A stretch of DNA of 64,000 nucleotides, from assembly GCF_964213995.1 (NCBI RefSeq), contig NC_135815.1, positions 2,480,001 to 2,544,000 of the forward strand. The letters run 5' to 3'. The first letter of the stretch is position 1; each line of letters begins with the position of its first letter. The DNA is from Mustelus asterias. Lineage: Eukaryota. A program made the translations under genes and the position numbers. The notes under the pieces are model-generated. The model was not told where the DNA came from and ran no database searches. It worked only from the letters and a program-made list of their open reading frames with translations. This document shows, piece after piece, positions 6,231 to 62,477 of this stretch.

Positions 6231-6534
6231 TCAGTCTGGGATTTCCGTAGTGAGAGTTTTGAATTTTCAGCGTACCCGCCAATGGGAGTGTCTATCTAAA
6301 GTGTTTAATTTTTCCATTCCTTCAGTGTGACGGCTGCCACCCACTCTTACAAAAGGGATCAGGGGGGAAACCACTTCCCCCGCCCAATCTTTGTGCCTCT
6401 GTATGTATCTCCCCAGGAAGAGAAAATCACTGAAAGCAAAGCTCCTTTACCGAGATTCTGTGGCTGATTTCACCCCTGCAATTAAATTCACCACAACATT
6501 ATCATCAAATGAGAGGAAGTTACGTTATATTTAC

Positions 6535-6670
6535 CGTTCTGGCTTTAATCTGCTTTGAAAACACGCCCATTTTTTCACACAGAGAATTGTGATGATTGAT
6601 ATGCAGAGGAAGAGGACAAGTGCCAGGGTGCAGGCGATAATGCTGATGACAGGCCGGCTTTCAGGTTCTT
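6535..6670 (-). CDS. Exon 6: transmembrane exon (EEPESRP-VISIIACTLALVLFLCISIITILCV-KKWACFQSRLKPER)
   Basis: Acceptor tcttactattttgcag|AA (phase 1), ~25-aa uncharged hydrophobic run then KK stop-transfer, phase-2 donor CG|GTAAAT. Confidence 0.92.
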
Positions 6671-9002: not shown

Positions 9003-9377
9003 CATGCTGAATTGGGGAGAAGGTTGTATCAGTGACATTGAGCTGGGTCCCTGCTCCATGGATGTAGCTCCACACACTGCATCTGTACACAGCTGTATCA
9101 TTGAGGGTCACATTCACAATGGTCAGAATGTAGCTGTTGCTGCTGACATTCCGGGAAGGCTGAAAACGGTGGTGGGAATCCTGGGACTTGGTAATGGTGC
9201 CATTCACAAATTGGCTGATCAGCCACTCACTGCGGTAGCCAGCTCGCTGGTAACGCCAGTGGACATCAGTGTCAATCACACTGGCATTGTACATGGCACA
9301 TTGTAAGTCGACAGCCTGACCCTCTGGCACCTTGCTGACTGTTGGATACTGCATGAGGACTGGGTCAGACAATGGGG
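9003..9377 (-). CDS. Exon 5: VJ domain V4 (near-copy of V3) plus 9-aa stalk DTTFSPIQH
   Basis: Same acceptor sequence as V3. No GT at the position of the V3 donor. The next phase-1 donor is G|GTAATC at 9003/9002, giving 375 nt in frame with the TM exon. Confidence 0.85.
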
Positions 9378-13357: not shown

Positions 13358-13705
13358 CAGTGACATTGAGCTGGGTCCCTGCTCCATGGATGTAGCTCCA
13401 CACACTGCATCTGTACACAGCTGTATCATTGAGGGTCACATTCACAATGGTCAGAATGTAACTGTTGCTGCTGACATTCCGGGAAGGCTGAAAACGGTGG
13501 TGGGAATCCCGGGACTTGGTAATGGTGCCATTCACAAATTGGCTGATCAGCCACTCACTGCGGTAGCCAGCTCGCTGGTAATGCCAGTGGACATCAGTGT
13601 CAATCACACTGGCATTGTACATGGCACATTGTAAGTCGACAGCCTGACCCTCTGGCACCTTGCTGACTGTTGGATACTGCATGAGGACTGGGTCAGACAA
13701 TGGAG
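13358..13705 (-). CDS. Exon 4: VJ domain V3 (PLSDPVLMQYP..LQC..VHWH..DTAVYRCSVWSYIHGAGTQLNVT)
   Basis: Acceptor tttcccacccacag|, donor G|GTAAGT, 348 nt, phase 1-1. Confidence 0.93.
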
Positions 13706-17695: not shown

Positions 17696-18040
17696 TGGTT
17701 ACATTCAGCTGTGTCCCGTTCCCACTGATATCTCCCCACACTGAGCAGTAATAGACGGCAGTGTCACTGGGCTGCACCATGGTGATTGTCAGAATGAAGC
17801 TGTTATTGGAGGTGTCTCTGGAAGGCTGGAAACGCTCAGTGAAACCTGGGCTCCGGTGTGTGTGATTCCCTGTATCCTGTGTTAAAACTCTCTTCCTATC
17901 TTTCCCAGGTAGCTCCCGGTGCCAGTGAACATCAGTGCCTGTCACTGTAGCGTTCCCCATGGTGCACTGTAACCGTGCAGTCTGACCCTCTGTGACACGT
18001 TCCACACTCGGAGACTGGGTAAGGACTGGAACATTCGCAC
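17696..18040 (-). CDS. Exon 3: VJ domain V2 (ANVPVLTQSP..LQC..VHWH..DTAVYYCSVWGDISGNGTQLNVT)
   Basis: Acceptor ttttcctctttttaaag|, donor A|GTAAGT, 345 nt, phase 1-1, V-set motifs. Confidence 0.95.
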
Positions 18041-18907: not shown

Positions 18908-19411
18908 AGAGTCATAGAGGTTTACAGCATGGAAACAGGCCCTTCAGCCCAACTTGTCCATGCCGCCCTTCCTTTAAACTCCAAAACTAGTCCCAATTGC
19001 CCGCATTTGGCCCATATCCCTCTATACCCATCTTACTCATGTAACTGTCTAAATGCTTTTTAAAAGACAAAATTATACCCGCCTCCACTACTACCTCTGG
19101 CAGCTTGTTCCAGACACTCACCATCCTCTAAGTGAAGAAATTGCCCCTCTAGACCTTTTGTATCTCTCACCTCTAACCTTAGGCCAATGCCCTCTAGTTT
19201 TAGACTCCCCAACCTTTGGGAAAAGATGTTGACGATCTAGCTGATCTATGCTCCTCATTATTTTTTAGACCTCAATAAGATCACCCTTAAGCCTCCTACG
19301 CTCCAGGGAAAAAGTCCCAGTCTATCCAGCCTCTCCTTATAACTCAAACCATCATGTCTCATTAACATCCTGGTAAACCTTTTCTGCACTCTTTCTAGTT
19401 TAATAATATCC
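18908..19411 (-). mobile_element. CR1 LINE 3' fragment
   Basis: KDIIKLERVQKRFTRM..YKERLDRLGLF. Its 5' end abuts the inverted-repeat arm. Confidence 0.85.
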
Positions 19412-20349
19412 TTTACTCCTCCATGTTGAACACCACTTGGAGGAAGCACTGAGGGGGGCAAGGGCACAGAATGTACTCTGGGTGGGGGATTTCAATGTCC
19501 ATCACCAAGAGTGGCTCAACAGCAGCACTGCAGACCGAGCCAAATGACATAGCGGTTAGACTGGGACTGCAACAGGTGGTGAAATTTAAACTTTGGAAAC
19601 CATTTCTATGCTAATGCTGAACCCCTTCAGCTCCCTCTCACTCACTAAACCCTGCCTTCCCCAGCTGTGTGTAAGTGTTTGGTTTGCCAGCACCCTGAGG
19701 AATTGTTGGTCAGTCCAGTGCAATGTAAAAGAGTCAATAAATTCTGATGGAGGGTCGTCAACTTGAAAGATTATGTGGAATATGAATCTGGGTCAGGAGT
19801 TGGCCACTCGGCCCCTCAGTCCTGCTCCGCCATCCATGGCTGATCTGATTGTAAGTGTTTCTCTGTGTTGCGAGGGTGCTGGATTTGCTGAGTATTCCGG
19901 CATTTTCTGTTTTCTTTATTTCAGATTTTCAAAACGTGCAGTATTTTGCTTGGGGTTTGTTTGAGCTCAGCGACAAATAGGGTTGCCCGGAACTGTCCAC
20001 AGTGCAGTACTGTACACACTTTGCTCTGTTTTTACCCAGCCCTTTGCCTCCTTTTCCTCTGCCAGACATGATGATTCTTCACTCAGTTCCCAACAAAATG
20101 CTATCTGTCTTACTGCTCGTTTTCTTCTCGTGACTGAATTTTCTGTGAGATTTTGGTGCGTCGTTTACACTTAATCATTTGTTCAATGAAAATGCCCCAG
20201 TTGGGTTTGACCCAGATTGAACTCTATCATGTGATTAAAATGTTCACCCAGCATCGTTAGTGTAAAAAGTGACAATCTTTTATCGTATTTACCTAAACAT
20301 CAGATGATTATGTGGTAAAATTTGGAATAAAAGCAGAGAAAATACTCAC

Positions 20350-20700
20350 TGGTCACATTCAGCCGGGTTCCACTTCCAAGGATACGTCCCCAAATCCCAC
20401 AGATATAGACATTGGAGTCACTGAGCTGCACATCTCTGATGGTCAGATTGTAACTGTTACTGGCAACATCTCTGGAAAGCTGAAATCGCTCGGAGAATCC
20501 TCCTGACCGGTAAACTCTGCCATCTACGTAATGACTCAGTAACATTTGATTCTTATTTTGTGCGTACCAGTGTACAGTAAAACTCTCCACTCTGTTATTT
20601 GTGTTGCTGCTCTGCAAATTACACCCAAACTTCACCGCTTCACCCTCACGCACTTTCACAACCGCAGGTGATTGGACGAGGACTATCTTTGCCTCGTGAC
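20350..20700 (-). CDS. Exon 2: Ig V-set domain V1 with joined J-like strand (HEAKIVLVQSP..FGC..VHWY..DSNVYICGIWGRILGSGTRLNVT)
   Basis: Acceptor ttttctctttccag|, donor A|GTGAGT, 351 nt, phase 1-1. Canonical C, W, DxxxYxC and GxGT. Confidence 0.95.
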
Positions 20701-20736
20701 CTGGAAAGAGAAAATAATTGAAGATTGGAACAGATA

Positions 20737-21270
20737 AGAAAGAACAAAGAACAGGACAGCACAGGAACAGGCCCTTTGACCCACCAAGTCTGTGCTGACG
20801 CAGGTGCCTCTCTAATCTAATATCTTCTTGCCTACACATGGTTCCTATCCCTCTATTCCCTGCCTATTCCTGTATCTATCTGGATGCCTCTTGAACATTG
20901 TTACAGAATCTGCTTCCAGCACCTCCTCCGGCAGCGCGTTCCAGGCGTTAACCACCCTCTGTGAGAAAAACTTGCCTCTTACATCTCTTTTAAACTTTCC
21001 CCCTCTCACTTTCAACCGATGCCCCGTGAGCAAGTGACTCTTCGACCCTGGGGAAAAGACTCTGATTATCCACTCTATCCAAGCCTGTTATAATCCTGTA
21101 AATCTCTATCAGGTTCCGCCCCCCGCCCCCCTCTCCTCATCCTCTGACGCTCCAATGAAAACAATCCAAGTTTGTTCAACCTTTCTTCACCCTCCATATC
21201 CTCCAAACCAGGCAACATCCTGGTAAAGGTCGTCTACACCCTTTCCAATGTGTCAACATCCTTCCGGTGG
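20737..21270 (-). mobile_element. CR1 LINE 3' fragment
   Basis: GHRLKVRGGKFKRDVRGKFFSQRVVNAWN and (ttctttg) tail. Close relative at 36745-37425. Confidence 0.85.
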
Positions 21271-22410
21271 TGAGAAAGTACAAAGTCTAACCTGAAAGCA
21301 GGTTATGAAATCTGTATATTGATGAATATATAACTGTGTATTATCCTCACTAATATGTTGCCGAGCTAAAACAAACCCCAAGCAAAATACTGCATGTTTT
21401 CAAAATCTGAAATAAAGAAAACAGAAAATGCTGGAATACTCAGCAAATCCAGCACCCTCGCAACACAGAGAAACACTTACAATCAGATCAGCCATGGATG
21501 GCGGAGCAGGACTGAGGGGCCGAGTGGCCAACTCCTGACCCAGATTCATATTCCACATAATCTTTCAAGTTGACGACCCTCCATCAGAATTTATTGACTC
21601 TTTTACATTGCACTGGACTGACCAACAATTCCTCAGGGTGCTGGCAAACCAAACACTTACACACAGCTGGGGAAGGCAGGGTTTAGTGAGTGAGAGGGAG
21701 CTGAAGGGGTTCAGCATTAGCATAGAAATGGTTTCCAAAGTTTAAATTTCACCACCTGTTGCAGTCCCAGTCTAACCGCTATGTCATTTGGCTCGGTCTG
21801 CAGTGCTGCTGTTGAGCCACTCTTGGTGATGGACATTGAAATCCCCCACCCAGAGTACATTCTGTGCCCTTGCCCCCCTCAGTGCTTCCTCCAAGTGGTG
21901 TTCAACATGGCGGAGTACTGACTCATCAGCTGAGGGGGTGACAATACATGATAATCAGCAGGAGGTTTCCTTGCCCATGAAAACCCCCAGGGCAATTCCC
22001 TCTCAACTGTACACCACTGAGAACATGCAAACTTCACACACTGACCCAAGCTGGGAGTTGAACCCGGGTCCCTGGCGCTGTGAGGCAGCAGTGCTAACCA
22101 TTGTGCCACCACCTCTGCTGGATCTGTCCCGCCAATGGGACAGGACACACCCAGGAAGGGTGATGGTGATGTCTGGGACATTCTGCAAGTATGACAATGT
22201 CAGGCTGTTGCTTGAAAGGTTTGTGGAGTAGCTGTATGTCTCAGTCATAGAATCATAGAAACCCTACAGTACAGAAAGAGACCATTTGGCCCATCGAGTC
22301 TGCACTGACCACAATCCCACCCAGGCCCTACCCCCAGATCCCTACATATTTACCTGCTAATCCCTCGCGCTCTGAAGCAGCAGTGCTAACCATTGTGCTA
22401 CCGTGCCGCC

Positions 22411-25400
22411 CAGTGTTGGGACAGTGTGTCTCAGTGTTGGGGCTGTGTGTCTCAGTGTTGGAGCTGTGTGTCTCAGTGTTGGGACTGTGTGTGTCAGTGT
22501 TGGGGCTGTGTGTGTCAGTGTTGGGGCTGTGTGTCTCAGTGTTGGGGCTGTGTGTGTCAGTGTTGGGGCTGTGTGTCTCAGTGTTGGGGCTGTGTGTGTC
22601 AGTGTTGGGGCTGTGTGTCTCAGTGTTGGAGCTGTGTGTCTCAGTGTTGGGGCTGTGTGCCTCAGTGTTGGGGCTGTGTGCCTCAGTGTTGGGGCTGTGT
22701 GTCTCAGTGTTGGGGCTGTGTGTCTCAGTGTTAGGACAGTGTGTCTCAGTGTTAGGACAGTGTGTCTCAGTGTTGGGGCTGTGTGTCTCAGTGTTGGGGC
22801 TGTGTGTCTCAGTGTTAGGACAGTGTGTCTCAGTGTTAGGACAGTGTGTCTCAGTGTTGGGACAGTGTGTCTCAGTGTTGGGGCTGTGTGTCTCAGTGTT
22901 GGGACAGTGTGTCTCAGTGTTGGGGCTGTGTGTCTCAGTGTTAGGACAGTGTGTCTCAGTGTTAGGACAGTGTGTCTCAGTGTTGGGGCTGTGTGTCTCA
23001 GTGTTGGGACAGTGTGTCTCAGTGTTGGGACAGTGTGTCTGTGTTAGGACAGTGTGTCTCAGTGTTGGGACAGTGTGTCTCAGTGTTGGGACAGTGTGTC
23101 TCAGTGTTGGGGCTGTGTGTCTCAGTGTTGGGACAGTGTGTCTCAGTGTTTGTGCTATGTGTCTCAGTGTTGGGGCTGTTTGTCTCAGTGTTAGGACAGT
23201 GTGTCTCAGTGTTAGGACAGTGTGTCTCAGTGTTAGGACAGTGTGTCTCAGTGTTGGGACAGTGTGTCTCAATGTTGGGACAGTGTGTCTCAGTGTTGGG
23301 GCTGTGTGTCTCAGTGTTGGGACAGTGTGTCTCAGTGTTTGTGCTATGTGTCTCAGTGTTAGGACAGTGTGTCTCAGTGTTAGGACAGTGTGTCTCAGTG
23401 TTAGGACAGTGTGTCTCAGTGTTGGGACAGTGTGTCTCAGTGTTGGGGCTGTGTGTCTCAGTGTTGGGGCTGTGTGTCTCAGTGTTTGTGCTATGTGTCT
23501 CAGTGTTGGGGCTGTTTGTCTCAGTGTTAGGACAGTGTGTCTCAGTGTTAGGACAGTGTGTCTCAGTGTTAGGACAGTGTGTCTCAGTGTTGGGACAGTG
23601 TGTCTCAATGTTGGGACAGTGTGTCTCAGTGTTGGGGCTGTGTGTCTCAGTGTTGGGACAGTGTGTCTCAGTGTTTGTGCTATGTGTCTCAGTGTTAGGA
23701 CAGTGTGTCTCAGTGTTAGGACAGTGTGTCTCAGTGTTAGGACAGTGTGTCTCAGTGTTGGGACAGTGTGTCTCAGTGTTGGGGCTGTGTGTCTCAGTGT
23801 TGGGACAGTGTGTCTCAGTGTTTGTGCTATGTGTCTCAGTGTTGGGACAGTGTGTCTCAGTGTTTGTGCTATGTGTCTCAGTGTTGGGACAGTGTGTCTC
23901 AGTGTTAGGACAGTGTGTCTCAGTGTTGGGACAGTGTGTCTCAGTGTTGGGGCTGTGTGTCTCAGTGTTGGGGCTGTGTGTCTCAGTGTTTGTGCTATGT
24001 GTCTCAGTGTTGGGGCTGTTTGTCTCAGTGTTAGGACAGTGTGTCTCAGTGTTAGGACAGTGTGTCTCAGTGTTAGGACAGTGTGTCTCAGTGTTGGGAC
24101 AGTGTGTCTCAATGTTGGGACAGTGTGTCTCAGTGTTGGGGCTGTGTGTCTCAGTGTTGGGACAGTGTGTCTCAGTGTTTGTGCTATGTGTCTCAGTGTT
24201 AGGACAGTGTGTCTCAGTGTTAGGACAGTGTGTCTCAGTGTTAGGACAGTGTGTCTCAGTGTTGGGACAGTGTGTCTCAGTGTTGGGGCTGTGTGTCTCA
24301 GTGTTGGGACAGTGTGTCTCAGTGTTTGTGCTATGTGTCTCAGTGTTGGGACAGTGTGTCTCAGTGTTTGTGCTATGTGTCTCAGTGTTGGGACAGTGTG
24401 TCTCAGTGTTAGGACAGTGTGTCTCAGTGTTGGGACAGTGTGTCTCAGTGTTGGGGCTGTGTGTCTCAGTGTTGGGGCTGTGTGTCTCAGTGTTGGGGCT
24501 GTGTGTCTCAGTGTTGGGACAGTGTGTCTCAGTGTTAGGACAGTGTGTCTCAGTGTTGGGACAGTGTGTCTCAGTGTTGGGACAGTGTGTCTCAGTGTTG
24601 GGGCTGTGTGTCTCAGTGTTGGGACAGTGTGTCTCAGTGTTAGGACAGTGTGTCTCAGTGTTGGGACAGTGTGTCTCAGTGTTGGGACAGTGTGTCTCAG
24701 TGTTGGGGCTGTGTGTCTCAGTGTTGGGACAGTGTGTCTCAGTGTTTGTGCTATGTGTCTCAGTGTTAGGACAGTGTGTCTCAGTGTTAGGACAGTGTGT
24801 CTCAGTGTTAGGACAGTGTGTCTCAGTGTTGGGACAGTGTGTCTCAGTGTTGGGGCTGTGTGTCTCAGTGTTGGGACAGTGTGTCTCAGTGTTTGTGCTA
24901 TGTGTCTCAGTGTTGGGGCTGTGTGTCTCAGTGTTGGGGCTGTGTGTCTCAGTGTTTGTGCTATGTGTCTCAGTGTTGGGGCTGTTTGTCTCAGTGTTAG
25001 GACAGTGTGTCTCAGTGTTAGGACAGTGTGTCTCAGTGTTAGGACAGTGTGTCTCAGTGTTGGGACAGTGTGTCTCAATGTTGGGACAGTGTGTCTCAGT
25101 GTTGGGGCTGTGTGTCTCAGTGTTGGGACAGTGTGTCTCAGTGTTTGTGCTATGTGTCTCAGTGTTAGGACAGTGTGTCTCAGTGTTAGGACAGTGTGTC
25201 TCAGTGTTAGGACAGTGTGTCTCAGTGTTGGGACAGTGTGTCTCAGTGTTGGGGCTGTGTGTCTCAGTGTTGGGACAGTGTGTCTCAGTGTTTGTGCTAT
25301 GTGTCTCAGTGTTGGGACAGTGTGTCTCAGTGTTTGTGCTATGTGTCTCAGTGTTGGGACAGTGTGTCTCAGTGTTAGGACAGTGTGTCTCAGTGTTGGG

Positions 25401-25730
25401 ACAGTGTGTCTCAGTGTTGGGGCTGTGTGTCTCAGTGTTGGGGCTGTGTGTCTCAGTGTTGGGGCTGTGTGTCTCAGTGTTGGGACAGTGTGTCTCAGTG
25501 TTAGGACAGTGTGTCTCAGTGTTGGGACAGTGTGTCTCAGTGTTGGGACAGTGTGTCTCAGTGTTGGGGCTGTGTGTCTCAGTGTTGGGACAGTGTGTCT
25601 CAGTGTTAGGACAGTGTGTCTCAGTGTTGGGACAGTGTGTCTCAGTGTTGGGACAGTGTGTCTCAGTGTTGGGGCTGTGTGTCTCAGTGTTGGGACAGTG
25701 TGTCTCAGTGTTTGTGCTATGTGTCTCAGT
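22411..25730. repeat. 21-bp minisatellite (cagtgttgggacagtgtgtct)n, ~3.3 kb, in intron 1
   Basis: About 158 units with recurring variant patterns. One 19-bp unit near 23040. Confidence 0.97.
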
Positions 25731-26394
25731 GGTGTTGGCCCCTTCCAGCATGCCCGTTATCCAGCTGTTAATTCCTGGAAGGGATGGGGAGGGTAGGGTT
25801 AGTAGTCAGTGAGTAATATGAAATGGTGAAATCTGCTTCACTGGACCTCCAGGCCCACGCCCATCTCCTTCTGATATGGACCCTGCCACTGACTCTCTGA
25901 ATTCTCAAGAGGAAACGGAATGCTGGCAAGATGGTGGCAATGTGGTTAATTTCTGTAATTCACTTTGCTTCTGTTCGCAAGTTCTCATTACTAAAGAGTT
26001 GCTTCACAGTTCCATGCCCTTGCTGCTAAATGGTTATATTGAACAGATTAGGTAAATACCGATTGTGAAAGAGGAATCTTCAGGGAACAGAGCCAATGAG
26101 GAGAGTTTGAACAGTTTCAAGTTGTTTCCATTGCTGAATTATTGGGTTAGATATCAGTCACCACTGAACCCTTTGGACAGGTAAAAAGCAGAAGCAAAAA
26201 TGAGCAATTTCATCAGGTACTCCCCCAAGAAAACTCCAAAACTGGATCATCGACAGCAACTAAGCCATGTGTTAGCGCTCTTGAATGTACTAATGATACT
26301 GGGTTAAATAAGCCTAAAGTTTTTTATTTTATTGACAAAGGGTTAATGTCAGAGTCAGGAATGAGCAATGAATGTTCATTATCTGTCCTTGAAG

Positions 26395-28648
26395 CTTGTT
26401 ACTAGAGAGGCAGTGCTTGGTAGACTAACGGGACTGAAGGTGGACAAGTCCCCGGGCCCGGATGGAATGCATCCCAGGGTACTGAAAGAAATGTCGGAGG
26501 TAATTGCGGATGCGTTAGTGGTTATTTATCAAAATTCGTTGGATTCTAGGGTAGTGCCGGCTGATTGGAAAACAACTACTGTTACGCCGCTGTTTAAAAA
26601 AGGAAGTAGACAAAAGGTGGGTAACTACAGGCCGGTTAGCTTAACGTCTATAGTTGGGAAAATGCTGGAATCCATCATTAAAGAAGAAATAGCAGGCCAT
26701 CTGCTCAAGCAGACGCAGCATGGATTCATGAGAGGAAAGTCGTGCTTGACGAACCTACTGGATTTTTCTGAAGCTGTGACTAGTGCCGTTGACGGAGGGG
26801 AACCGGTGGATGTGGTATTTTTGGATTTCCAAAAGGCATTCGATAAGGTGCCTCACAAAAGGTTGCTGCGGAAGATTGGGGCACACGGAGTTGGGGGTAG
26901 GGTGTTAGCGTGGATTGGGGATTGGCTATCCAACAGGAAGCGGAGAGTTGGAATAAATGGGTGCTTTTCTAGTTGGCAGATGGTGACTAGTGGCGTGCCG
27001 CAGGGATCGGTACTGGGGCCTCAACTGTTTACTATTTACATAGATGATCTGGAGGAGGGGACTGAGTGTAGGGTAACAAAGTTTGCTGACGACACGAAGA
27101 TAAGTGGGAAAGTGAATTGCGTGAAGGAAGCGGAAGGTCTGCAGAGAGATTTGGATAGGCTGAGTGAGTGGGCGAGGATCTGGCAGATGGAGTATAACGT
27201 TGGCAAATGTGAGGTTATTCACTTTGGAAGAAATAATAGCAAATTGGATTATTATTTAAATGGAAAAAAATTACAACATGCTACTGTGCAGAGGGACCTG
27301 GGGGTCCTTGTGCAGGAGTCGCAAAAACTCAGTCTGCAGGTACAACAGGTGATCAAGAAGGCAAATGGGATGTTGGCATTTAACGCGAGGGGGATAGAAT
27401 ATAAATGCAGAGAAGTCTTGCTGCATCTGTACAAGGCATTGGTGAGGCCGCAGCTGGAATACTGTGCGCAGTATTGGTCCCCTTATTTGTGAAAGGATAT
27501 ATTGGCCTTGGAAGGAGTGCAGAGAACATAAGAACATAAGAAATAGAAGCAGGAGTAGGCCATCTAGCCCCTCAAGCCTGCCCCGCCATTCAATAAGATC
27601 ATGGCTGATCTGAAGTGAATCTGTTCTACTTACCCGCCTGCTCCCCATAACCCTTAATTCCCTTACCGATCAGGAATCCATCTATCCGTGATTTAAACAT
27701 ATTCAATGAGGTAGCCTCCACCACTTCAGTGGGCAGAGAATTCCAGAGATTCACCACCCTCTGAGAGAAGAAGTTCCTCCTCAACTCTGTCCTAAACTGA
27801 CCCCCCTTTATTTTGAGGCTGTGCCCTCTAGTTCTAGTTTCCTTTCTAAGTGGAAAGAATCTCTCCACCTCTACCCTATCCAGCCCCTTCATTATCTTAT
27901 AGGTCTCTATAAGATCCCCCCTCAGCCTTCTAAATTCCAACGAGTACAAACCCAATCTGCTCAGTCTCTCCTCATAATCAACACCCCTCATCTCTGGTAT
28001 CAACCTGGTGAACCTTCTCTGCACTCCCTCCAAGGCCAATATGTCCTTCCGCAAATAAGGGGACCAATACTGCACACAGTATTCCAGCTGCGGCCTCACC
28101 AATGCCCTGTACAGATGCAGCAAGACATCTCTGCTTTTATATTCTATCCCCCTCGCGATATAGAAGGTTCACCAGGTTGATACCGGAGATGAGGGGTGTA
28201 GATTATGAGGAGAGACTGAGCAGATTAGGTTTGTACTCGTTGGAATTTAGAAGGCTGAGCGGTGATCTTATAGAGGCATATAAGATAATGAAGGGGCTGG
28301 ATAGGATAGAATTCTTTCCACTTAGAAAGGAAACCAGAACTAGAGGACACAACCTCAAAATAATGGGGGGTCAGTTTAGGACAGAGTTGAGGAGGAATCT
28401 CTTCTCTAGGATGGTGGTGAATCTCTGGAATTCTCTGCCCACTGAAGTGGTGGAGGCTTCCTCGTTGAATATGTTTAAATCATGGATAGATGGATTCCTG
28501 ATCGGTAAGGGAATTAAGGGTTATGGGGAGCAGGCGGGTAAGTGGAACTGATTCACTTCAGATCAGCCATGATCTTATTGAATGGCGGGGCAGGCTCGAG
28601 GGGCTAGATGGCCTACTCCTGCTCCTATTTCTTATGTTCTTATGTTCT
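26395..28648 (+). mobile_element. 5'-truncated CR1 (RT domain) with an inverted same-subfamily copy inserted at ~27524-28161
   Basis: RT motifs [17 protein letters not shown] and FADD. Host ORF breaks at EGVQR| and resumes at RFTRLIPE. Confidence 0.92.
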
Positions 28649-29581: not shown

Positions 29582-29633
29582 CCATTTTGACACAGAAGGC
29601 CAGGGTCAGGACTGAGAGAAATGGCTCAAACAT
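29582..29633 (-). CDS. Exon 1 (signal peptide) of multi-VJ Ig-superfamily receptor: MFEPFLSVLTLAFCVKM+G
   Basis: ATG at 29633-29631, hydrophobic core, phase-1 donor G|GTAAGT. Joins V1 in frame (..VKMGHEA-KIVLVQSP). TATA element about 50 bp upstream. Confidence 0.85.
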
Positions 29634-47414: not shown

Positions 47415-50400
47415 GAGACACGCGGTGACGGATCAGACACACGGGGACGCGGATCAGAGACACGCGGTGACGGATCAGAGACACGCGGAGGTGGATCAGA
47501 GACACGCGGTGACGGATCAGAGACACGCGGAGGTGGATCAGAGACACGCGGAGGTGGATCAGAGACACGCGGTAACGGATCAGAGAAACGCGGTAATGGA
47601 TCAGAGACACGCGGTGACGGATCAGAGACACACGGTGACGGATCAGAGACATGCGGTGACGGATCAGAGACACGCGGTGACGGATCAGAGACACACGGTG
47701 ACAGATCAGAGACACGCGGTGACGGATCAGAGACACGTGGTGACGGATCAGAGACACGCGGTGACGGATCAGAGACACACGGAGGCGGATCAGAGACACG
47801 CAGTGACGGATCAGAGACACGCGGTGACGGATCAGAGACACACGGTGACGGATCAGAGACACGCGGTAACGGATCAGAGACACGCGGTGACGGATCAGAG
47901 ACACACGGTAACGGATCAGAGACACGCGGTGACGGATCAGAGACACGTGGTGACGGATCAGAGACACGCGGTGACGGATCAGAGACACACGGAGGCGGAT
48001 CAGAGACACGCAGTGACGGATCAGAGGCACGCGGTGACGGATCAGAGACACACGGTGACGGATCAGAGACATGCGGTAACGGATCAGAGACACACGGTGA
48101 CGGATCAGAGACACACGGTGACGGATCAGAGACACGCGGTGACGGATCAGAGACATGCGGTGACGGATCAGAGACACGCGGTGACGGATCAGAGACACGC
48201 GGTGACGGATCAGAGACACACAGTAACGGATCAGAGACACACGGTAACGGATCAGAGACACACGGTGACGGATCAGAGACACGCGGTGACGGATCAGAGA
48301 CACGCGGTGACGGATCAGAGACACGCGGTGACGGATCAGAGACACGCGGTGACGGATCAGAGACACACGGAGGCGGATCAGAGACACGCGGTGACGGATC
48401 AGAGACATGCGGTGACGGATCAGAGACACGCGGTGATGGATCAGAGACACGCGGTGACGGATCAGAGACACGCGGTGACGGATCAGAGACACGCGGTGAC
48501 GGATCAGAGACACGCGGTGACGGATCAGAGACACGCGGTGACGGATCAGAGACACGCAGTGACAGATCAGAGACATGCGGTGACGGATCAGAGACACGCG
48601 GTGACGGATCAGAGACATGCGGTGACAGATCAAAGACACGCGGTGACGGATCAGAGACATGCGGTGACGGATCAGAGGCACGCGGTGACGGATCAGAGAC
48701 ACGCGGTGACAGATCAGAGACATGCGGTGACAGATCAGAGACATGCGGTGACGGATCAGAGACACACGGTGACGGATCAGAGACACGCGGTGACGGATCA
48801 GAGACACGCGGTGACAGATCAGAGACATGCGGTGACGGATCAGAGACACGCGGTGACGGATCAGAGACACACGGAGGCGGATCAGAGACACGCGGTGACG
48901 GATCAGAGACACGCGGTGACGGATCAGAGACACGCGGTGACGGATCAGAGACACATGGTGACGGATCAGAGACACGCGGTGACGGATCAGAGACACACGG
49001 TAACGGATCAGAGACACGCGGTGACGGATCAGAGACACGCGGTGACGGATCAGTGACACGCGGCGATGGATCAGAGACACACGGTAACGGATCAGAGACA
49101 CACGGTGACGGATCAGAGACACGCGGTGACGGATCAGAGACACGCGGTAACGGATCAGTGACACGCGGTGAAGGATCAGAGACACGCGGTGACGGATCAG
49201 TGACACGCGGTGATGGATCAGAGACACACGGTAACGGATCAGAGACACGCGGTGATGGATCAGAGACACGCCGTGACGGATCAGTGACACGCGGTGATGG
49301 ATCAGAGACACACGGTAACGGATCAGAGACACACGGTGACGGATCAGAGACACGCGGTGATGGATCAGAGACACGCGGTAACGGATCAGAGACACGCGGA
49401 GGCGGATCAGAGACACACGGTGACGGATCAGAGACACGCGGTGACGGATCAGAGACACGCAGTGACGGATCAGAGACACGCGGTGACGGATCAGAGACAC
49501 ACGGTGACGGATCAGAGACACGCAGTGACGGATCAGAGACACGCGGTGACGGATCAGAGACACACGGTGACGGATCAGAGACACGCAGTGACGGATCAGA
49601 GACACACGGTGACGGATCAGAGACACGCGGTGACGGATCAGAGACACGCGGTGACGGATCAGAGACACGCGGAGGCGGATCAGAGACACGCGGTGACGGA
49701 TCAGAGACACACGGTGACGGATCAGAGACACGCGGTGACGGATCAGAGACACGCGGTGACGGATCAGAGACACGCGGTGACGGATCAGAGACATGCGGTG
49801 ACGGATCAGAGACATGCGGTGACGGATCAGAGACACGGGGTGACGGATCAGAGACACGCGGTGACGGATCAGAGACACGCGGTGACGGATCAGAGACACA
49901 CGGTGACGGATCAGAGACACGCGGTGACGGATCAGAGACACGAGGTGACGGATCAGAGACACGCGGTGACGGATCAGAGACACGAGGTGACGGATCAGAG
50001 ACACGCGGTGACGGATCAGAGACACGCGGTGACGGATCAGAGACATGCGGTGACGGATCAGAGACATGCGGTGACGGATCAGAGACACGCGGTGACGGAT
50101 CAGAGACACGCGGTGACGGATCAGAGACATGCGGTGACGGATCAGAGACACGCGGTGACGGATCAGAGACACGCGGTGACGGATCAGAGACACGCGGTGA
50201 CGGATCAGAGACACGCGGTGACAGATCAGAGACATGCGGTGACGGATCAGAGACACGCGGTGACGGATCAGAGACACACGGAGGCGGATCAGAGACACGC
50301 GGTGACGGATCAGAGACACGCGGTGACGGATCAGAGACACGCGGTGACGGATCAGAGACACATGGTGACGGATCAGAGAAACGCGGTAATGGATCAGAGA

Positions 50401-53400
50401 CACGCGGTGACGGATCAGAGACACACGGTGACGGATCAGAGACATGCGGTGACGGATCAGTGACACGTGGTGACGGATCAGAGACACGCGGTGACGGATC
50501 AGAGACATGCGGTGACGGATCAGAGACATGCGGTGACGGATCAGAGACATGCGGTGAGGGATCAGAGACACGCGGTGACGGATCAGAGACACGCGGTGAC
50601 GGATCAGAGACACGCGGTGACGGATCAGAGACATGCGGTGACGGATCAGAGACATGCGGTGACGGATCAGAGACACGCGGTGACGGATCAGAGACACGCG
50701 GTGACGGATCAGAGACACGCGGTGACGGATCAGAGACACACGGTGACGGATCAGAGACACGCGGTGACGGATCAGAGACACACGGTGATGGATCAGAGAC
50801 ACGCGGTGACGGATCAGAGACACACGGTGACGGATCAGAGACACGCGGTGACGGATCAGTGACACGTGGTGACGGATCAGAGACACGCGGTGACGGATCA
50901 GTGACACGTGGTGACGGATCAGAGACACGCGGTGACGGATCAGAGACACACGGTGACGGATCAGAGACACGCGGTGACGGATCAGAGAAACGCGGTAATG
51001 GATCAGAGACACGCGGTGACGGATCAGAGACACGCGGAGGTGGATCAGAGACACGCGGTGACGGATCAGAGACACGCGGTGACGGATCAGAGACACGCGG
51101 AGGTGGATCAGAGACACGCGGTGACGGATCAGAGACACGTGGTGACGGATCAGAGACACACGGTGACGGATCAGAGACACGCGGTGACGGATCAGTGACA
51201 CGCAGTGACGGATCAGAGACACGCGGTAACGGATCAGAGAAACGCGGTAATGGATCAGAGACACGCGGTGACGGATCAGAGACACGCGGTGACGGATCAG
51301 AGAAACGCGGTAATGGATCAGAGACACGCGGTGACGGATCAGAGACACACGGTGACGGATCAGAGACACGCGGTGACGGATCAGAGACACGCGGTGACGG
51401 ATCAGAGACACACGGTGACGGATCAGAGACACACGGTGACGGATCAGAGGCACGCGGTGACGGATCAGAGACACACGGTGACGGATCAGAGACACGCGGT
51501 GACGGATCAGAGACACGCGGTGACGGATCAGAGACACACGGTGACGGATCAGAGACATGCGGTGACGGATCAGAGACACGCGGTGACGGATCAGAGACAC
51601 ACGGTGACAGATCAGAGACACGCGGTGACGGATCAGAGACACGTGGTGACGGATCAGAGACACGCGGTGACGGATCAGAGACACACGGAGGCGGATCAGA
51701 GACACGCAGTGACGGATCAGAGACACGCGGTGACGGATCAGAGACACACGGTGACGGATCAGAGACACGCGGTAACGGATCAGAGACACGCGGTGACGGA
51801 TCAGAGACACACGGTAACGGATCAGAGACACGCGGTGACGGATCAGAGACACGTGGTGACGGATCAGAGACACGCGGTGACGGATCAGAGACACACGGAG
51901 GCGGATCAGAGACACGCAGTGACGGATCAGAGACACGCGGTGACGGATCAGAGACACACGGTGACGGATCAGAGACACGCGGTAACGGATCAGAGACACA
52001 CGGTGACGGATCAGAGACACACGGTGACGGATCAGAGACACGCGGTGACGGATCAGAGACATGCGGTGACGGATCAGAGACACGCGGTGACGGATCAGAG
52101 ACACGCGGTGACGGATCAGAGACACACAGTAACGGATCAGAGACACACGGTAACGGATCAGAGACACACGGTGACGGATCAGAGACACGCGGTGACGGAT
52201 CAGAGACACGCGGTGACGGATCAGAGACACGCGGTGACGGATCAGAGACACGCGGTGACGGATCAGAGACACACGGAGGCGGATCAGAGACACGCGGTGA
52301 CGGATCAGAGACATGCGGTGACGGATCAGAGACACGCGGTGACGGATCAGAGACACGCGGTGACGGATCAGAGACACGCGGTGACGGATCAGAGACACGC
52401 GGTGACGGATCAGAGACACGCGGTGACGGATCAGAGACACGCGGTGACGGATCAGAGACACGCGGTGACAGATCAGAGACACACGGTGACGGATCAGAGA
52501 CACGCGGTGACGGATCAGAGACACGAGGTGACGGATCAGAGACACGCGGTGACGGATCAGAGACACGAGGTGATGGATCAGAGACACGCGGTGACGGATC
52601 AGAGACACGCGGTGACGGATCAGAGACATGCGGTGACGGATCAGAGACATGCGGTGACGGATCAGAGACACGCGGTGACGGATCAGAGACACGCGGTGAC
52701 GGATCAGAGACATGCGGTGACGGATCAGAGACACGCGGTGACGGATCAGAGACACGCGGTGACGGATCAGAGACACGCGGTGACGGATCAGGGACACGCG
52801 GTGACAGATCAGAGACATGCGGTGACGGATCAGAGACACGCGGTGACGGATCAGAGACACACGGAGGCGGATCAGAGACACGCGGTGACGGATCAGAGAC
52901 ACGCGGTGACGGATCAGAGACACGCGGTGACGGATCAGAGACACATGGTGACGGATCAGAGAAACGCGGTAATGGATCAGAGACACGCGGTGACGGATCA
53001 GAGACACACGGTGACGGATCAGAGACACGCGGTGACGGATCAGTGACACGTGGTGACGGATCAGAGACACGCGGTGACGGATCAGAGACATGCGGTGACG
53101 GATCAGAGACATGCGGTGACGGATCAGAGACATGCGGTGAGGGATCAGAGACACGCGGTGACGGATCAGAGACACGCGGTGACGGATCAGAGACACGCGG
53201 TGACGGATCAGAGACATGCGGTGACGGATCAGAGACATGCGGTGACGGATCAGAGACACGCGGTGACGGATCAGAGACACGCGGTGACGGATCAGAGACA
53301 CACGGTGACGGATCAGAGACACGCGGTGACGGATCAGAGACACACGGTGATGGATCAGAGACACGCGGTGACGGATCAGAGAAACGCGGTAATGGATCAG

Positions 53401-56400
53401 AGACACGCGGTGACGGATCAGAGACACACGGTGACGGATCAGAGACACGCGGTGACGGATCAGTGACACGTGGTGACGGATCAGAGACACGCGGTTTCGG
53501 ATCAGTGACACGTGGTGACGGCTCAGAGACACGCGGTGACGGATCAGAGACACACGGTGACGGATCAGAGACACGCGGTGACGGATCAGAGAAACGCGGT
53601 AATGGATCAGAGACACGCGGTGACGGATCAGAGACACGCGGAGGTGGATCAGAGACACGTGGTGACGGATCAGAGACACGCGGTGACGGATCAGAGACAC
53701 GCGGAGGTGGATCAGAGACACGCGGTGACGGATCAGAGACACGTGGTGACGGATCAGAGACACACGGTGACGGATCAGAGACACGCGGTGACGGATCAGT
53801 GACACGCAGTGACGGATCAGAGACACGCGGTAACGGATCAGAGAAACGCGGTAATGGATCAGAGACACGCGGTGACGGATCAGAGACACGCGGTGACGGA
53901 TCAGAGAAACGCGGTAATGGATCAGAGACACGCGGTGACGGATCAGAGACACACGGTGACGGATCAGAGACACGCGGTGACGGATCAGAGACACGCGGTG
54001 ACGGATCAGAGACACACGGTGACGGATCAGAGACACACGGTGACGGATCAGAGACACGCGGTGACGGATCAGAGACACGCGGTGACGGATCAGAGACACA
54101 CGGAGGCGGATCAGAGACACGCAGTGACGGATCAGAGACACACGGTGACGGATCAGAGACACGTGGTGACGGATCAGAGACACGCGGTGACGGATCAGAG
54201 ACACGCGGTGACGGATCAGAGACACGCAGTGACGGATCAAAGACACGCGGTGACGGATCAAAGACACGCGGTGACGGATCAGAGACACGCGGTGACGGAT
54301 CAGAGACACGCGGTGACGGATCAGAGACACGCGGTGACGGATCAGTGACACGCAGTGACGGATCAGAGACACGCAGTGACGGTTCAGAGACACGCGGTGA
54401 CGGATCAGTGACACGCAGTGACGGATCAGAGACACGCGGTGACGGATCAGTGACACGCGGTGACGGATCAGAGACACGCAGTGACGGATCAGAGACACAC
54501 GGTGACGGATCAGAGACACGCGGTGACGGATCAGTGACACGCGGTGACGGATCAGAGACACGCAGTGACGGATCAGAGACACACGGTGACGGATCAGAGA
54601 CACGCGGTGACGGATCAGAGACACGCGGTGACGGATCAGAGACACGCAGTGACGGATCAGACACGCGGTGACGGATCAGAGACACACGGTGACGGATCAG
54701 AGACACGCAGTGACGGATCAGAGACACGCGGTGACGGATCAGAGACACGCGGTGACGGATCAGAGACACACGGTGACGGATCAGAGACACGCGGTGATGG
54801 ATCAGAGACACGCGGTAACGGATCAGAGACACGCGGTGATGGATCAGAGACACGCGGAGGCGGATCAGAGACACGCGGTAACGGATCAGAGACACGCGGT
54901 GACGGATCAGAGACACGCGGTGACGGATCAGAGACACATGGTGACGGATCAGAGACACGCGGTGACGGATCAGAGACACACGGTAACGGATCAGAGACAC
55001 GCGGTGACGGATCAGAGACACGCGGTGACGGATCAGTGACACGCGGCGATGGATCAGAGACACACGGTAACGGATCAGAGACACACGGTGACGGATCAGA
55101 GACACGCGGTGACGGATCAGAGACACGCGGTAACGGATCAGTGACACGCGGTGATGGATCAGAGACACGCGGTGACGGATCAGTGACACGCGGTGATGGA
55201 TCAGAGACACACGGTAACGGATCAGAGACACGCGGTGATGGATCAGAGACACGCCGTGACGGATCAGTGACACGCGGTGATGGATCTGAGACACACGGTA
55301 ACGGATCAGAGACACACGGTGACGGATCAGAGACACGCGGTGATGGATCAGAGACACGCGGTAACGGATCAGAGACACGCGGAGGCGGATCAGAGACACA
55401 CGGTGACGGATCAGAGACACGCGGTGACGGATCAGAGACACGCAGTGACGGATCAGAGACACGCGGTGACGGATCAGAGACACACGGTGACGGATCAGAG
55501 ACACGCAGTGACGGATCAGAGACACGCGGTGACGGATCAGAGACACACGGTGACGGATCAGAGACACGCAGTGACGGATCAGAGACACACGGTGACGGAT
55601 CAGAGACACGCGGTGACGGATCAGAGACACGCGGTGACGGATCAGAGACACACGGAGGCGGATCAGAGACACGCGGTGACGGATCAGAGACACACGGTGA
55701 CGGATCAGAGACACGCAGTGACGGATCAGAGACACGCGGTGACGGATCAGAGACACACGGAGGCGGATCAGAGACACGCGGTGACGGATCAGAGACACAC
55801 GGTGACGGATCAGAGACACGCAGTGACGGATCAGAGACACACGGTGACGGATCAGAGACACGCGGTGACGGATCAGAGACACGCGGTGATGGATCAGAGA
55901 CACGCGGTGATGGATCAGAGACACACGGTGACGGATCAGAGACACGCGGTGACGGATCAGAGACACACGGTGACGGATCAGAGACACGCGGTGACGGATC
56001 AGAGACACACGGTGACGGATCAGAGACACACGGTGACGGATCAGAGACACGGGGTGACGGATCAGAGACACGCGGTGACGGATCAGAGACACACGGTGAC
56101 GGATCAGAGACACACGGTGACGGATCAGAGACACGCGGTGACGGATCAGAGACACGCGGTGACGGATCAGAGACATGCGGTGACGGATCAGAGACACGCA
56201 GTGACGGATCAGAGACACGCGGTGACGGATCAGTGACACGCGGTGACGGATCAGAAACACGCAGTGACGGATCAGAGACACGCGGTGACGGATCAGAGAC
56301 ACGCGGTGACGGATCAGAGACACGCGGTGACGGATCAGAGACACATGGTGACGGATCAGAGACACGCGGTGACGGATCAGAGACATGCGGTGACGGATCA

Positions 56401-59400
56401 GAGACACGCGGTGACGGATCAGAGACACATGGTGACGGATCAGAGACACGCAGTGACGGATCAGAGACACGCGGTAACGGATCAGAGACACGCGGTGACG
56501 GATCAGAGACACGCGGTAACGGATCAGTGACACGCGGTGATGGATCAGAGACACACGGTAACGGATCAGAGACACCCAGTGACGGATCAGAGACATGCGG
56601 TAACGGATCAGTGACACGTGGTGATGGATCAGAGACACGCGGTAACGGATCAGAGACACGCGGTGACGGACCAGAGACACGCGGTAACGGATCAGTGACA
56701 CGCGGTGATGGATCAGAGACACGCGGTGACGGATCAGTGACACGCGGTGATGGATCAGAGACACACGGTAACGGATCAGAGACACGCGGTGACGGATCAG
56801 AGACACGCGGTGACGGATCAGTGACACGCGGTGATGGATCAGAGACACACGGTAACGGATCAGAGACACGCGGTGACGGATCAGAGACACACGGTAACGG
56901 ATCAGAGACACACGGTGACGGGATCAGAGACACGCGGTGATGGATCAGAGACACGCGGTGACGGATCAGAGACACACGGTGACGGATCGGAGACACGCGG
57001 TGACGGATCAGAGACACACGGTGACGGGATCAGAGACACACGGTGACGGATCAGAGACACACGGTGACGGGATCAGAGACACGCGGTGATGGATCAGAGA
57101 CACGCGGTAACGGATCAGAGACACACGGTGACGGATCAGAGACACGCGGTGACGGATCAGAGACGCGCAGTGACGGATCAGAGACACGCGGTGACGGATC
57201 AGAGACACACGGTGACGGATCAGAGACACGCAGTGACGGATCAGAGACACGCGGTGACGGATCAGAGACACACGGTGACGGATCAGAGACACGCGGTAAC
57301 GGATCAGAGACACGCGGTGACGGATCAGAGACACACGGTGATGGATCAGAGACACGCGGTGACGGATCAGAGACACGCGGTGACGGATCAGAGACACACG
57401 GTGACGGATCAGAGACACGCTGTGACGGATCAGAGACACACGGTGACGGATCAGAGACACACGGAGGCGGATCAGAGACACGCGGTGACGGATCAGAGAC
57501 ACGCGGTGACGGATCAGAGACACGCGGTGACGGATCAGAGACACACGGTGACGGATCAGAGACACGCGGTAACGGATCAGAGACTCGCGGTGACGGATCA
57601 GAGACACGCGGTGACGGATCAGAGACACACGGTGACGGATCAGAGACACGCGGTGATGGATCAGAGACACGCGGTAACGGATCAGAGACACGCGGTGATG
57701 GATCAGAGACACGCGGTAACGGATCAGAGACACGTGGTGACGGATCAGAGACACACGGTGACGGATCAGAGACACGCGGTGACGGATCAGAGACACGCGG
57801 TAACGGATCAGTGACACGCGGTGATGGATCAGAGACACACGGTAACGGATCAGAGACACCCGGTGACGGATCAGAGACACGCGGTAACGGATCAGTGACA
57901 CGTGGTGATGGATCAGAGACACGCGGTAACGGATCAGAGACACGCGGTGACGGATCAGAGACACGCGGTAACGGATCAGTGACACGCGGTGATGGATCAG
58001 AGACACGCGGTGACGGATCAGTGACACGCGGTGATGGATCAGAGACACACGGTAACGGATCAGAGACACGCGGTGACGGATCAGAGACACGCGGTGCGGA
58101 TCAGTGACACGCGGTGATGGATCAGAGACACACGGTAACGGATCAGAGACACGCGGTGACGGATCAGAGACACATGGTAACGGATCAGAGACACACGGTG
58201 ACGGGATCAGAGACACGCGGTGATGGATCAGAGACACGCGGTGACGGATCAGAGACACACGGTGACGGATCAGAGACACGCGGTGACGGATCAGAGACAC
58301 ACGGTGACGGGATCAGAGACACACGGTGACGGATGAGAGACACACGGTGACGGGATCAGAGACACGCGGTGATGGATCAGAGACACGCGGTAACGGATCA
58401 GAGACACACGGTGACGGATCAGAGACACGCGGTGACGGATCAGAGACACGCAGTGACGGATCAGAGACACGCGGTGACGGATCAGAGACACACGGTGACG
58501 GATCAGAGACACGCAGTGACGGATCAGAGACACGCGGTGACGGATCAGAGACACACGGTGACGGATCAGAGACACGCGGTAACGGATCAGAGACACGCGG
58601 TGACGGATCAGAGACACACGGTGATGGATCAGAGACACGCGGTGACGGATCAGAGACACGCGGTGACGGATCAGAGACACACGGTGACGGATCAGAGACA
58701 CGCTGTGACGGATCAGAGACACACGGTGACGGATCAGAGACACACGGAGGCGGATCAGAGACACGCGGTGACGGATCAGAGACACGCGGTGACGGATCAG
58801 AGACACGCGGTGACGGATCAGAGACACACGGTGACGGATCAGAGACACGCGGTAACGGATCAGAGACACGAGGTGACGGATCAGAGACACGCGGTGACGG
58901 ATCAGAGACACGAGGTGATGGATCAGAGACACGCGGTGACGGATCAGAGACACGCGGTGACGGATCAGAGACATGCGGTGACGGATCAGAGACACGCGGT
59001 AACGGATCAGTGACACGCGGTGATGGATCAGAGACACGCGGTGACGGATCAGTGACACGCGGTGATGGATCAGAGACACACGGTAACGGATCAGAGACAC
59101 GCGGTGACGGATCAGAGACACGCGGTGACGGATCAGTGACACGCGGTGATGGATCAGAGACACACGGTAACGGATCAGAGACACGCGGTGACGGATCAGA
59201 GACACACGGTAACGGATCAGAGACACACGGTGACGGGATCAGAGACACGCGGTGATGGATCAGAGACACGCGGTGACGGATCAGAGACACACGGTGACGG
59301 ATCAGAGACACGCGGTGACGGATCAGAGACACACGGTGACGGGATCAGAGACACACGGTGACGGATCAGAGACACACGGTGACGGGATCAGAGACACGCG

Positions 59401-62400: not shown

Positions 62401-62477
62401 CACGCGGTGACGGATCAGAGACACATGGTGACGGATCAGAGACACGCGGTGATGGATCAGAGACACGCAGAGGTGGA
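47415..62477. repeat. 15-kb CpG-rich 21-bp satellite (gagacacgcggtgacggatca)n
   Basis: About 715 units, with higher-order blocks marked by variant units and rare indels. Confidence 0.98.

What the first reader, a model, noticed from the sequence alone, without database searches (positions are those of the whole stretch)
19414..21917. Near-perfect ~565-bp inverted duplication brackets exactly the membrane-distal V1 exon
Seen: arms ~19414-19980 and ~21352-21917 are reverse complements around a ~1.4-kb spacer holding V1 and both its splice sites. The arm is a composite (LINE endonuclease scrap, unique DNA, repeat scraps), and the LINE scrap continues beyond only the right arm. This points to a local inverted duplication rather than two insertions of one TE. 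V1 is symmetric (phase 1-1, 351 nt, stop-free). Inference: in pre-mRNA the arms would form a long dsRNA stem promoting in-frame V1 skipping or back-splicing into a 351-nt circRNA with an endless frame. At DNA level, recombination between the arms would invert V1, acting as an on/off switch or polymorphism for the likely ligand-binding domain.
Basis: partly seen in the sequence, partly recalled or inferred. Interest (0 to 1): 0.72.

Follow-up and report, generated by a model that had tools for sequence, protein, structure and literature searches.

The report
Old inverted duplication around receptor exon
In a shark immune-receptor gene, 565 bases of one intron were copied backwards into the next intron so that the outermost binding-domain exon sits between two matching arms; the copy is likely old and kept alike by gene conversion, and would likely cause some skipping of that exon as a side effect, a known kind of event with no sign of a purpose-built switch.

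Summary
The repeat is real: arms 19414-19978 and 21353-21917, 565 nt, 8 mismatches, 1374-nt spacer holding the 351-nt V1 exon of a shark multi-V ITIM/ITSM receptor gene. Public read contigs hold both inner junctions and show 1.5-1.7x depth over the arm, so it is no assembly artefact. The left arm is the new copy: it splits an older retrotransposon fragment, with about 4 nt lost and no target-site duplication; the arm occurs twice among the matches scored in the genome. New here: 478 nt of the arms are identical while the inner 80 nt differ at 7 sites, and a related organism about 3-6% diverged already has the left junction (one contig). So the duplication is likely old and recently homogenised by gene conversion. 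Against a purpose-built switch: only 1 of 19 family V exons has such arms, local inverted repeats are common in this cluster, chance bracketing of a V exon is about 14%, all V exons are symmetric, and no recombination signals flank the arms. Partial V1 skipping is plausible by analogy with TBXT but untested; no RNA run was listed. The scan has noted similar converted inverted repeats in other cartilaginous fish genomes.

The parts
19414..19978 (+). Left arm: inserted inverted copy, in the V1-V2 intron; the last 3 nt may already belong to the host element
   Evidence: inner junction in contigs of X3 (19869-20036, 0 differences) and X5 (19462-20379)
21353..21917 (-). Right arm: donor copy, in the leader-V1 intron
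   Evidence: LINE-like scrap continues past 21917 in 8 of 8 other copies; inner junction in contigs of X1 and X2 (21198-21841)
19421..19898 (+). 478-nt core identical between the arms (mirror 21433-21910): inferred gene-conversion tract
18908..19413 (-). Older CR1-like LINE 3' fragment (label recalled from its translation) split by the left arm
   Evidence: 84-91% to other copies; loose ends at 19414
19976..20004 (-). Continuation of the same CR1-like fragment after the left arm
   Evidence: matches what follows the break point in the two closest other copies
20350..20700 (-). V1 exon, single-exon V-set domain with a J-like end, phase 1-1
21748..21979 (-). LINE endonuclease-like scrap (label recalled), of which 21748-21917 lies in the arm
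29582..29633 (-). Leader exon coding part (52 nt, phase 1)
17696..18040 (-). V2 exon (345 nt)
13358..13705 (-). V3 exon (348 nt)
9030..9377 (-). V4: copy of V3 without a GT donor
6516..6665 (-). Transmembrane exon (ends approximate); cytoplasmic exons near 4757-4698 and 2157-2110; last exon with ITIM- and ITSM-like tyrosines lies just outside the window (G000:C15:2478800-2478690)

Best explanation
A 565-nt piece of intron 1 of a shark multi-V inhibitory receptor gene sits copied backwards inside an older retrotransposon fragment in intron 2, likely from one template-switch repair or replication event; its core was likely re-matched later by arm-to-arm gene conversion, and the arms are predicted to pair in the pre-mRNA and would likely cause partial in-frame V1 skipping as an unselected side effect. 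Shown: the structure, its direction (right arm donor, left arm copy), no target-site duplication, the uneven mismatches, both inner junctions in read contigs. Inferred: template switching, age, conversion. Predicted only: RNA duplex, skipping, circle, editing, rare inversion.
For: Host element resumes after the left arm with about 4 nt lost and 0-2 nt shared at the joints. Mismatches: 7 in the inner 80 nt, 1 in the outer 485 (Fisher p 6e-6; 3e-5 if 19976 is counted as junction); a 478-nt perfect run arose in 0 of 200,000 simulations. Derived letters fall on both arms: right at 19420 (8 of 8 outgroup copies agree with left) and 19930 (5 of 5), left probably at 19899 (5 of 7); 5 of 8 sites could not be polarised. 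One contig of organism B (X5) runs across the left inner junction with 50 other letters in 918, its other long pieces differing by 2.6-6.5%, so unconverted arms should differ at about 19-24 of 478 sites; none do. Exon-limited likeness among paralogues (V2-type 91-97%, V3-type 98-99%, leader 99.5-100% over 183-196 nt, introns unalignable) points to conversion across the cluster. 14 of 15 local inverted-repeat rows in 862 kb lie in the 462-kb cluster blocks; two other structures have partly low-copy arms and no family exon in their spacers. Skipping precedent: a 297-nt intron copy placed backwards in the next intron of mouse Tbxt caused exon skipping (PMC10901737, passages).
Against: The age argument from another species rests on one contig of one run, and that listing was cut. 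Error-prone synthesis near a young junction could also cluster mismatches at the inner end, though it does not explain derived letters in the donor arm or organism B. This is by far the strongest pair around any of 19 V exons (984 bits against at most 226), it sits on the membrane-distal domain, and it has lasted long in this lineage, which selection could also explain. V1 has a strong-looking acceptor (17 of 20 pyrimidines), and in human Alu data the link between pairing and skipping held only for weak acceptors (PMC13019027 section 21), so skipping may be slight. The template is 1.4 kb away, beyond the 100-nt range of the templated insertions in PMC8421209 (passages).
Confidence: 0.62

Rival explanations
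1. Co-opted splicing switch: whatever its origin, the paired arms are kept by selection because they tune the ratio of full-length to V1-less receptor (or make a V1 circle).
For: Predicted very stable duplex, about -1148 kcal/mol; geometry close to TBXT (1374 against 1448 nt); V1-less architecture exists in the family (neighbour P0033 starts with a V2-type domain; 25 of 67 homologues do, many from incomplete models); arms retained and converted.
Against: 1 of 19 V exons; organism B shows the arm at 1.02x depth against 1.46x expected for an identical twin, and no long right-arm piece was listed, so the perfect pair seems not conserved; conversion needs no selection; relatives' database isoforms drop one internal V domain in 5 of 5 pairs compared, so V skipping is common in the family; whether those genes have arms was not checked.
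Confidence: 0.17
2. Germline flip-flop polymorphism: recombination between the arms inverts V1 from time to time, giving V1-off alleles.
For: 478 nt of perfect identity and signs of arm-to-arm exchange; inverted-repeat inversions recur often in primates (PMC3961182, passages). Organism B's single-depth arm joined to the left end of the spacer is also what an inverted allele that lost its outer left arm would show.
Against: The assembly has the ancestral orientation; no inverted copy among scored G000 matches; the inversions in that paper span 5-226 kb, far larger than here; contigs cannot phase across the core.
Confidence: 0.1
3. Young duplication with error-prone copying at the inner junction and no conversion.
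For: 0 differences in 478 nt (upper 95% bound 0.6%); mismatches cluster at a junction.
Against: Left junction present in organism B; two derived letters lie in the donor arm.
Confidence: 0.08
4. Programmed somatic inversion in lymphocytes, a DNA transposon with long terminal repeats, or an assembly artefact.
For: Immune gene; long terminal inverted repeats in form.
Against: RSS scans gave 1 match each in 64 kb, at chance level and far from the arms; no target-site duplication, two copies only, spacer still continuous with the left flank; read contigs hold both inner junctions with 1.50x and 1.73x depth against 1.62x expected.
Confidence: 0.03

Closest known systems
Inverted-pair exon loop-out: hominoid TBXT AluSx1/AluY and the engineered mouse Tbxt-insRCS allele (PMC10901737, passages)
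   Same: One exon between inverted intronic copies about 1.4 kb apart; the engineered allele is a non-transposon intron copy placed backwards in the next intron
   Different: Here the pair is natural, about twice as long and nearer perfect; no skipped transcript has been seen
Reverse complementary matches promoting back-splicing and skipping (PMC8330042, abstract; PMC13019027, abstract and section 21)
   Same: Complementary arms in both flanking introns of a symmetric exon
   Different: Composite low-copy arms; acceptor looks strong; no circle or editing data
Templated inverted insertions by template switching (MMB-TIs; PMC8421209, passages)
   Same: Inverted copy of nearby DNA, small loss at the site, no target-site duplication, germline
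   Different: 565 nt copied from 1.4 kb away, larger and farther than that paper's definition; microhomology minimal
Inverted repeats under conversion with recurrent inversion (PMC3961182, passages)
   Same: High-identity core, tract of a few hundred bases
   Different: Much smaller; no inverted allele seen
Host gene: compared with shark non-rearranging VJ genes UrIg/UrIg2 (PMC12227049, passages) and skate MDIRs (PMC3031540, passages)
   Same: Single-exon V with J-like end; domains homogenised by conversion (UrIg2); multigene inhibitory-type receptors (MDIR)
   Different: Tandem V domains only, no C1 domains, membrane-bound with ITIM/ITSM-like tail; no sequence test against MDIR was run; database names for its relatives are automatic

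Membership tests
Inverted-pair exon loop-out / circRNA locus | Complementary arms in both introns flanking the exon | tested here: met
Inverted-pair exon loop-out / circRNA locus | Stable arm-arm duplex in the transcript | tested here: met
   prediction only: 553 pairs in the minimum-energy fold
Inverted-pair exon loop-out / circRNA locus | Skipped or back-spliced RNA, or A-to-I editing, observed | not testable with these tools
   no RNA holder listed; laid runs were contigs
Inverted-pair exon loop-out / circRNA locus | Weak acceptor favouring loop-out | tested here: inconclusive
   17 of 20 pyrimidines, like V2 (16) and V3 (17); no splice-strength model at hand
Templated inverted insertion | Inverted copy of nearby DNA at a break with small loss and no target-site duplication | tested here: met
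Templated inverted insertion | Microhomology at the joints | tested here: inconclusive
   1 nt at the outer joint, 0-2 nt at the inner
Templated inverted insertion | Template within 100 nt (MMB-TI definition) | tested here: not met
   1374 nt; works like, is not an MMB-TI as defined in PMC8421209
Converting inverted repeat | Arms more alike than their age allows, in a bounded tract | tested here: met
   outside evidence is one contig
Recurrent inversion polymorphism | Both orientations found | not testable with these tools
   contigs cannot phase 478 identical nt; one assembly only
DNA transposon / Pack-type element | Target-site duplication and dispersed copies | tested here: not met
RAG-mediated rearrangement | 12/23 recombination signals at the ends | tested here: not met
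MDIR receptors (host gene) | CD300/pIgR-like domains | not tested
   best solved-structure sequence matches were mostly antibody V domains, with JAML among them; no MDIR sequence compared

The most novel reading that the evidence does not exclude
A repair accident was co-opted: a self-renewing inverted repeat, kept perfect by gene conversion, toggles the ligand-facing domain of a shark inhibitory receptor both by RNA loop-out and by recurrent germline inversion, giving segregating V1-on and V1-off forms that could dodge pathogen binding.
Probability: 0.08. Interest if true: 0.7.

Novelty: new member of a known kind. Interest (0 to 1): 0.3.

Why it matters
As it stands it is a clean natural counterpart of the engineered Tbxt inverted-copy allele, in an immune gene, with a simple test (one RT-PCR, one minigene). 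It also warns that near-identity of inverted arms in shark genomes does not date them. It would matter more if V1-less transcripts or inverted alleles proved common, since the outer domain of an inhibitory receptor would then be switchable without new coding change. The host family of tandem single-exon VJ receptors may deserve more attention than the repeat.

Tried and rejected
No RNA holder listed for the stretch: no evidence either way on expression or splicing. X3 had no cover over V1: not used. The state of the right arm in organism B stays open: only the cut listing bears on it. Paralogous V1 loci share only the exon and a few flanking bases, so they give no empty-site outgroup. No database protein identical to this gene's V1 or whole product turned up among 136 and 112 candidates: weak evidence, not used. 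Transposon with terminal repeats, RAG switch and assembly artefact rejected (see rivals). The Pfam scan of the scraps did not run, so the CR1, LINE-endonuclease and Penelope labels are recalled from translations, not tested. The chance estimate (4.7% for V1, 14% for any of three V exons, about 20% for any of six exons) left out V4 and two small cytoplasmic exons. Eight of X5's V1 differences were listed, 7 at codon positions 1-2: too few and from a cut list. No earlier notes near this place. Paper searches listed nothing on this locus or clearly on this receptor family; one search returned no paper; most subscription papers and all supplements were unseen.

Full report
Observation. The repeat is there as described: arms 19414-19978 and 21353-21917, 565 nt without gaps, 8 mismatches, 1374 nt apart, the longest of 139 inverted pairs in the window. 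The spacer holds one exon on the minus strand, 20700-20350, 351 nt, phase 1-1, open, with a canonical acceptor and donor; read as a circle it has no stop. The arms lie 652 nt before the acceptor and 371 nt after the donor, so 'exactly' overstates it. The whole arm matched two places only among 40 scored matches in each of two searches of G000; all other matches were scraps of at most 171 query positions.

Host gene. Leader (29633-29582), V1, V2, V3, a V3 copy without donor (V4), a transmembrane exon, two small cytoplasmic exons and a last exon with ITIM- and ITSM-like tyrosines just beyond the window (motif names recalled). All 67 homologous proteins retrieved carry shark or ray labels and consist of tandem V-set domains. 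G000 has 19 closely related V exons in a 1-Mb cluster on C15. Each V ends in a J-like stretch within the same exon, as in the non-rearranging shark genes UrIg and UrIg2 (PMC12227049, passages), but there are no C1 domains. That V1 binds ligand is an inference from its position.

Not an artefact. Contigs of public runs X1 and X2 (one sample) cross the right inner junction, a contig of X3 (another sample) crosses the left inner junction with no difference, and the X1/X2 contig has 1.50x and 1.73x the depth of its neighbours against 1.62x expected for a collapsed two-copy core. X1/X2 may be the assembly's own source. The outer junctions were not seen in listed pieces.

Origin. The left arm splits an older CR1-like fragment (label recalled): the two closest of four other copies continue past the break point with the sequence found right after the arm, about 4 nt being lost, with no target-site duplication and 0-2 shared letters at the joints (loose ends at 19414 agree). 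The LINE-like scrap at the arm's outer end continues only on the right, in 8 of 8 other copies. So the right arm is the donor, the left the copy, and the spacer keeps its ancestral orientation. This works like a templated inverted insertion by template switching (PMC8421209, passages), though larger and more distant than that paper's class.

Age and conversion. Seven mismatches lie in the inner 80 nt, one 6 nt from the outer end, none in the 478 nt between (Fisher p 6e-6; 0 of 200,000 random placements gave such a run; p 3e-5 if 19976 is junction). Three of eight sites could be polarised with other repeat copies: two derived on the donor arm, one probably on the copy. One 924-nt contig of organism B (X5) runs from inside the left arm across the inner junction into the spacer with 50 other letters and 16 gaps; B's other long pieces differ by 2.6-6.5%. 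The insertion therefore likely predates the split, and unconverted arms should differ at some 19-24 of 478 sites. Recent conversion of the core is the simplest account; the tract fits the few-hundred-base range cited in PMC3961182 (passages). The cluster shows the same habit: paralogous V2-type and V3-type exons and two leaders are 91-100% alike over the exon and little more. In B the contig has 1.02x depth against 1.46x for an identical twin, and no long right-arm piece was listed, so B seems to lack the perfect pair; whether it lost, diverged or inverted is open, and the listing was cut.

Is the bracketing special? Of 19 V exons, only V1 has such arms within 3 kb; six others have a weak 70-84% repeat pair and twelve none. 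In 862 kb scanned, 15 rows of local inverted repeats (200 nt or more, 90% or more, spacer up to 5 kb) appeared, 14 in the 462-kb cluster blocks and 1 in 400 kb from elsewhere; three rows form one nested structure. Most arms are high-copy repeats; two other structures have partly low-copy arms, and 0 of 5 spacers tested held a family exon. A second, 93% pair lies in intron 1 of this same gene around no exon. A random placement of this footprint that spares exons encloses V1 4.7% of the time and some V exon 14%. Symmetry and an endless circle hold for every V exon. No recombination signals flank the arms. Against this ordinary reading: it is much the strongest pair around any V exon, on the outermost domain, and it has lasted.

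Likely consequence. The arms are predicted to form a duplex of about 553 pairs, complete 1.4 kb before the V2 acceptor is transcribed. In mouse Tbxt a 297-nt intron copy placed backwards in the next intron caused exon skipping, and the human Alu pair is 1448 nt apart (PMC10901737, passages); such matches promote both skipping and circles in C. elegans (PMC8330042, abstract). But many constitutive human exons have inverted Alu pairs, and the effect showed mainly for weak acceptors (PMC13019027, section 21); V1's acceptor looks strong. I put some V1 skipping at about 60-65%, a regulated and selected role at about 17%. The product, leader-V2-V3-TM, would be in frame and resembles the neighbouring gene P0033; relatives' database isoforms drop an internal V domain in 5 of 5 pairs compared. 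Rare germline inversion is possible given 478 identical nt; none was seen or could be.

Verdict. A real, likely old, converted local inverted duplication with a plausible but untested splicing side effect: a new member of known kinds. Earlier notes of this scan describe similar cases in other cartilaginous fish; they are unchecked and were read after this account was formed (note). Interest 0.3.

Noticed in passing
window 9030-9377 (-): V4 is 98.6% identical to V3 over 365 nt only and lacks the GT donor; likely skipped, or a terminal exon for a secreted form (frame stays open about 30 codons on).
   Followed up: partly
G000:C15:1.55-2.56 Mb: Cluster of tandem single-exon VJ-type receptors (19 V exons) with ITIM/ITSM-like or single-tyrosine tails, present across sharks and rays under automatic names; no describing paper found. 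Possibly an undescribed family.
   Followed up: partly
G000:C15 V2-type, V3-type and leader exons: Exon-limited near identity among paralogues with unalignable introns, whereas V1-type exons differ by 15-19%: concerted evolution of inner domains, divergent outer domain.
   Followed up: partly
G000:C15:2545461-2562238 (+), just right of the window: Head-to-head neighbour gene whose V1 exon changes frame near its 3' end.
   Followed up: no
window 27523-28018 / 28162-28648: Second inverted pair in intron 1 (496 nt, 93%, 143-nt spacer), high-copy repeat, evenly spread mismatches, no exon inside.
   Followed up: partly
G000:C15:1585455-1588724 and 1629603-1639017: Two other local inverted duplications with partly low-copy arms (about 1.4 kb nested, and 3.2 kb with a 751-nt perfect run).
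   Followed up: partly
window 47415-62468 and 22411-25731: Large 21-nt minisatellite arrays (716 and 158 copies); the second lies in intron 1 just outside the right arm.
   Followed up: no
window 20472-20763, run X5: V1 piece of organism B differs by 6.5% against 2.6-4.3% in nearby pieces; 7 of 8 listed exon changes at codon positions 1-2, a weak hint of fast protein change.
   Followed up: partly
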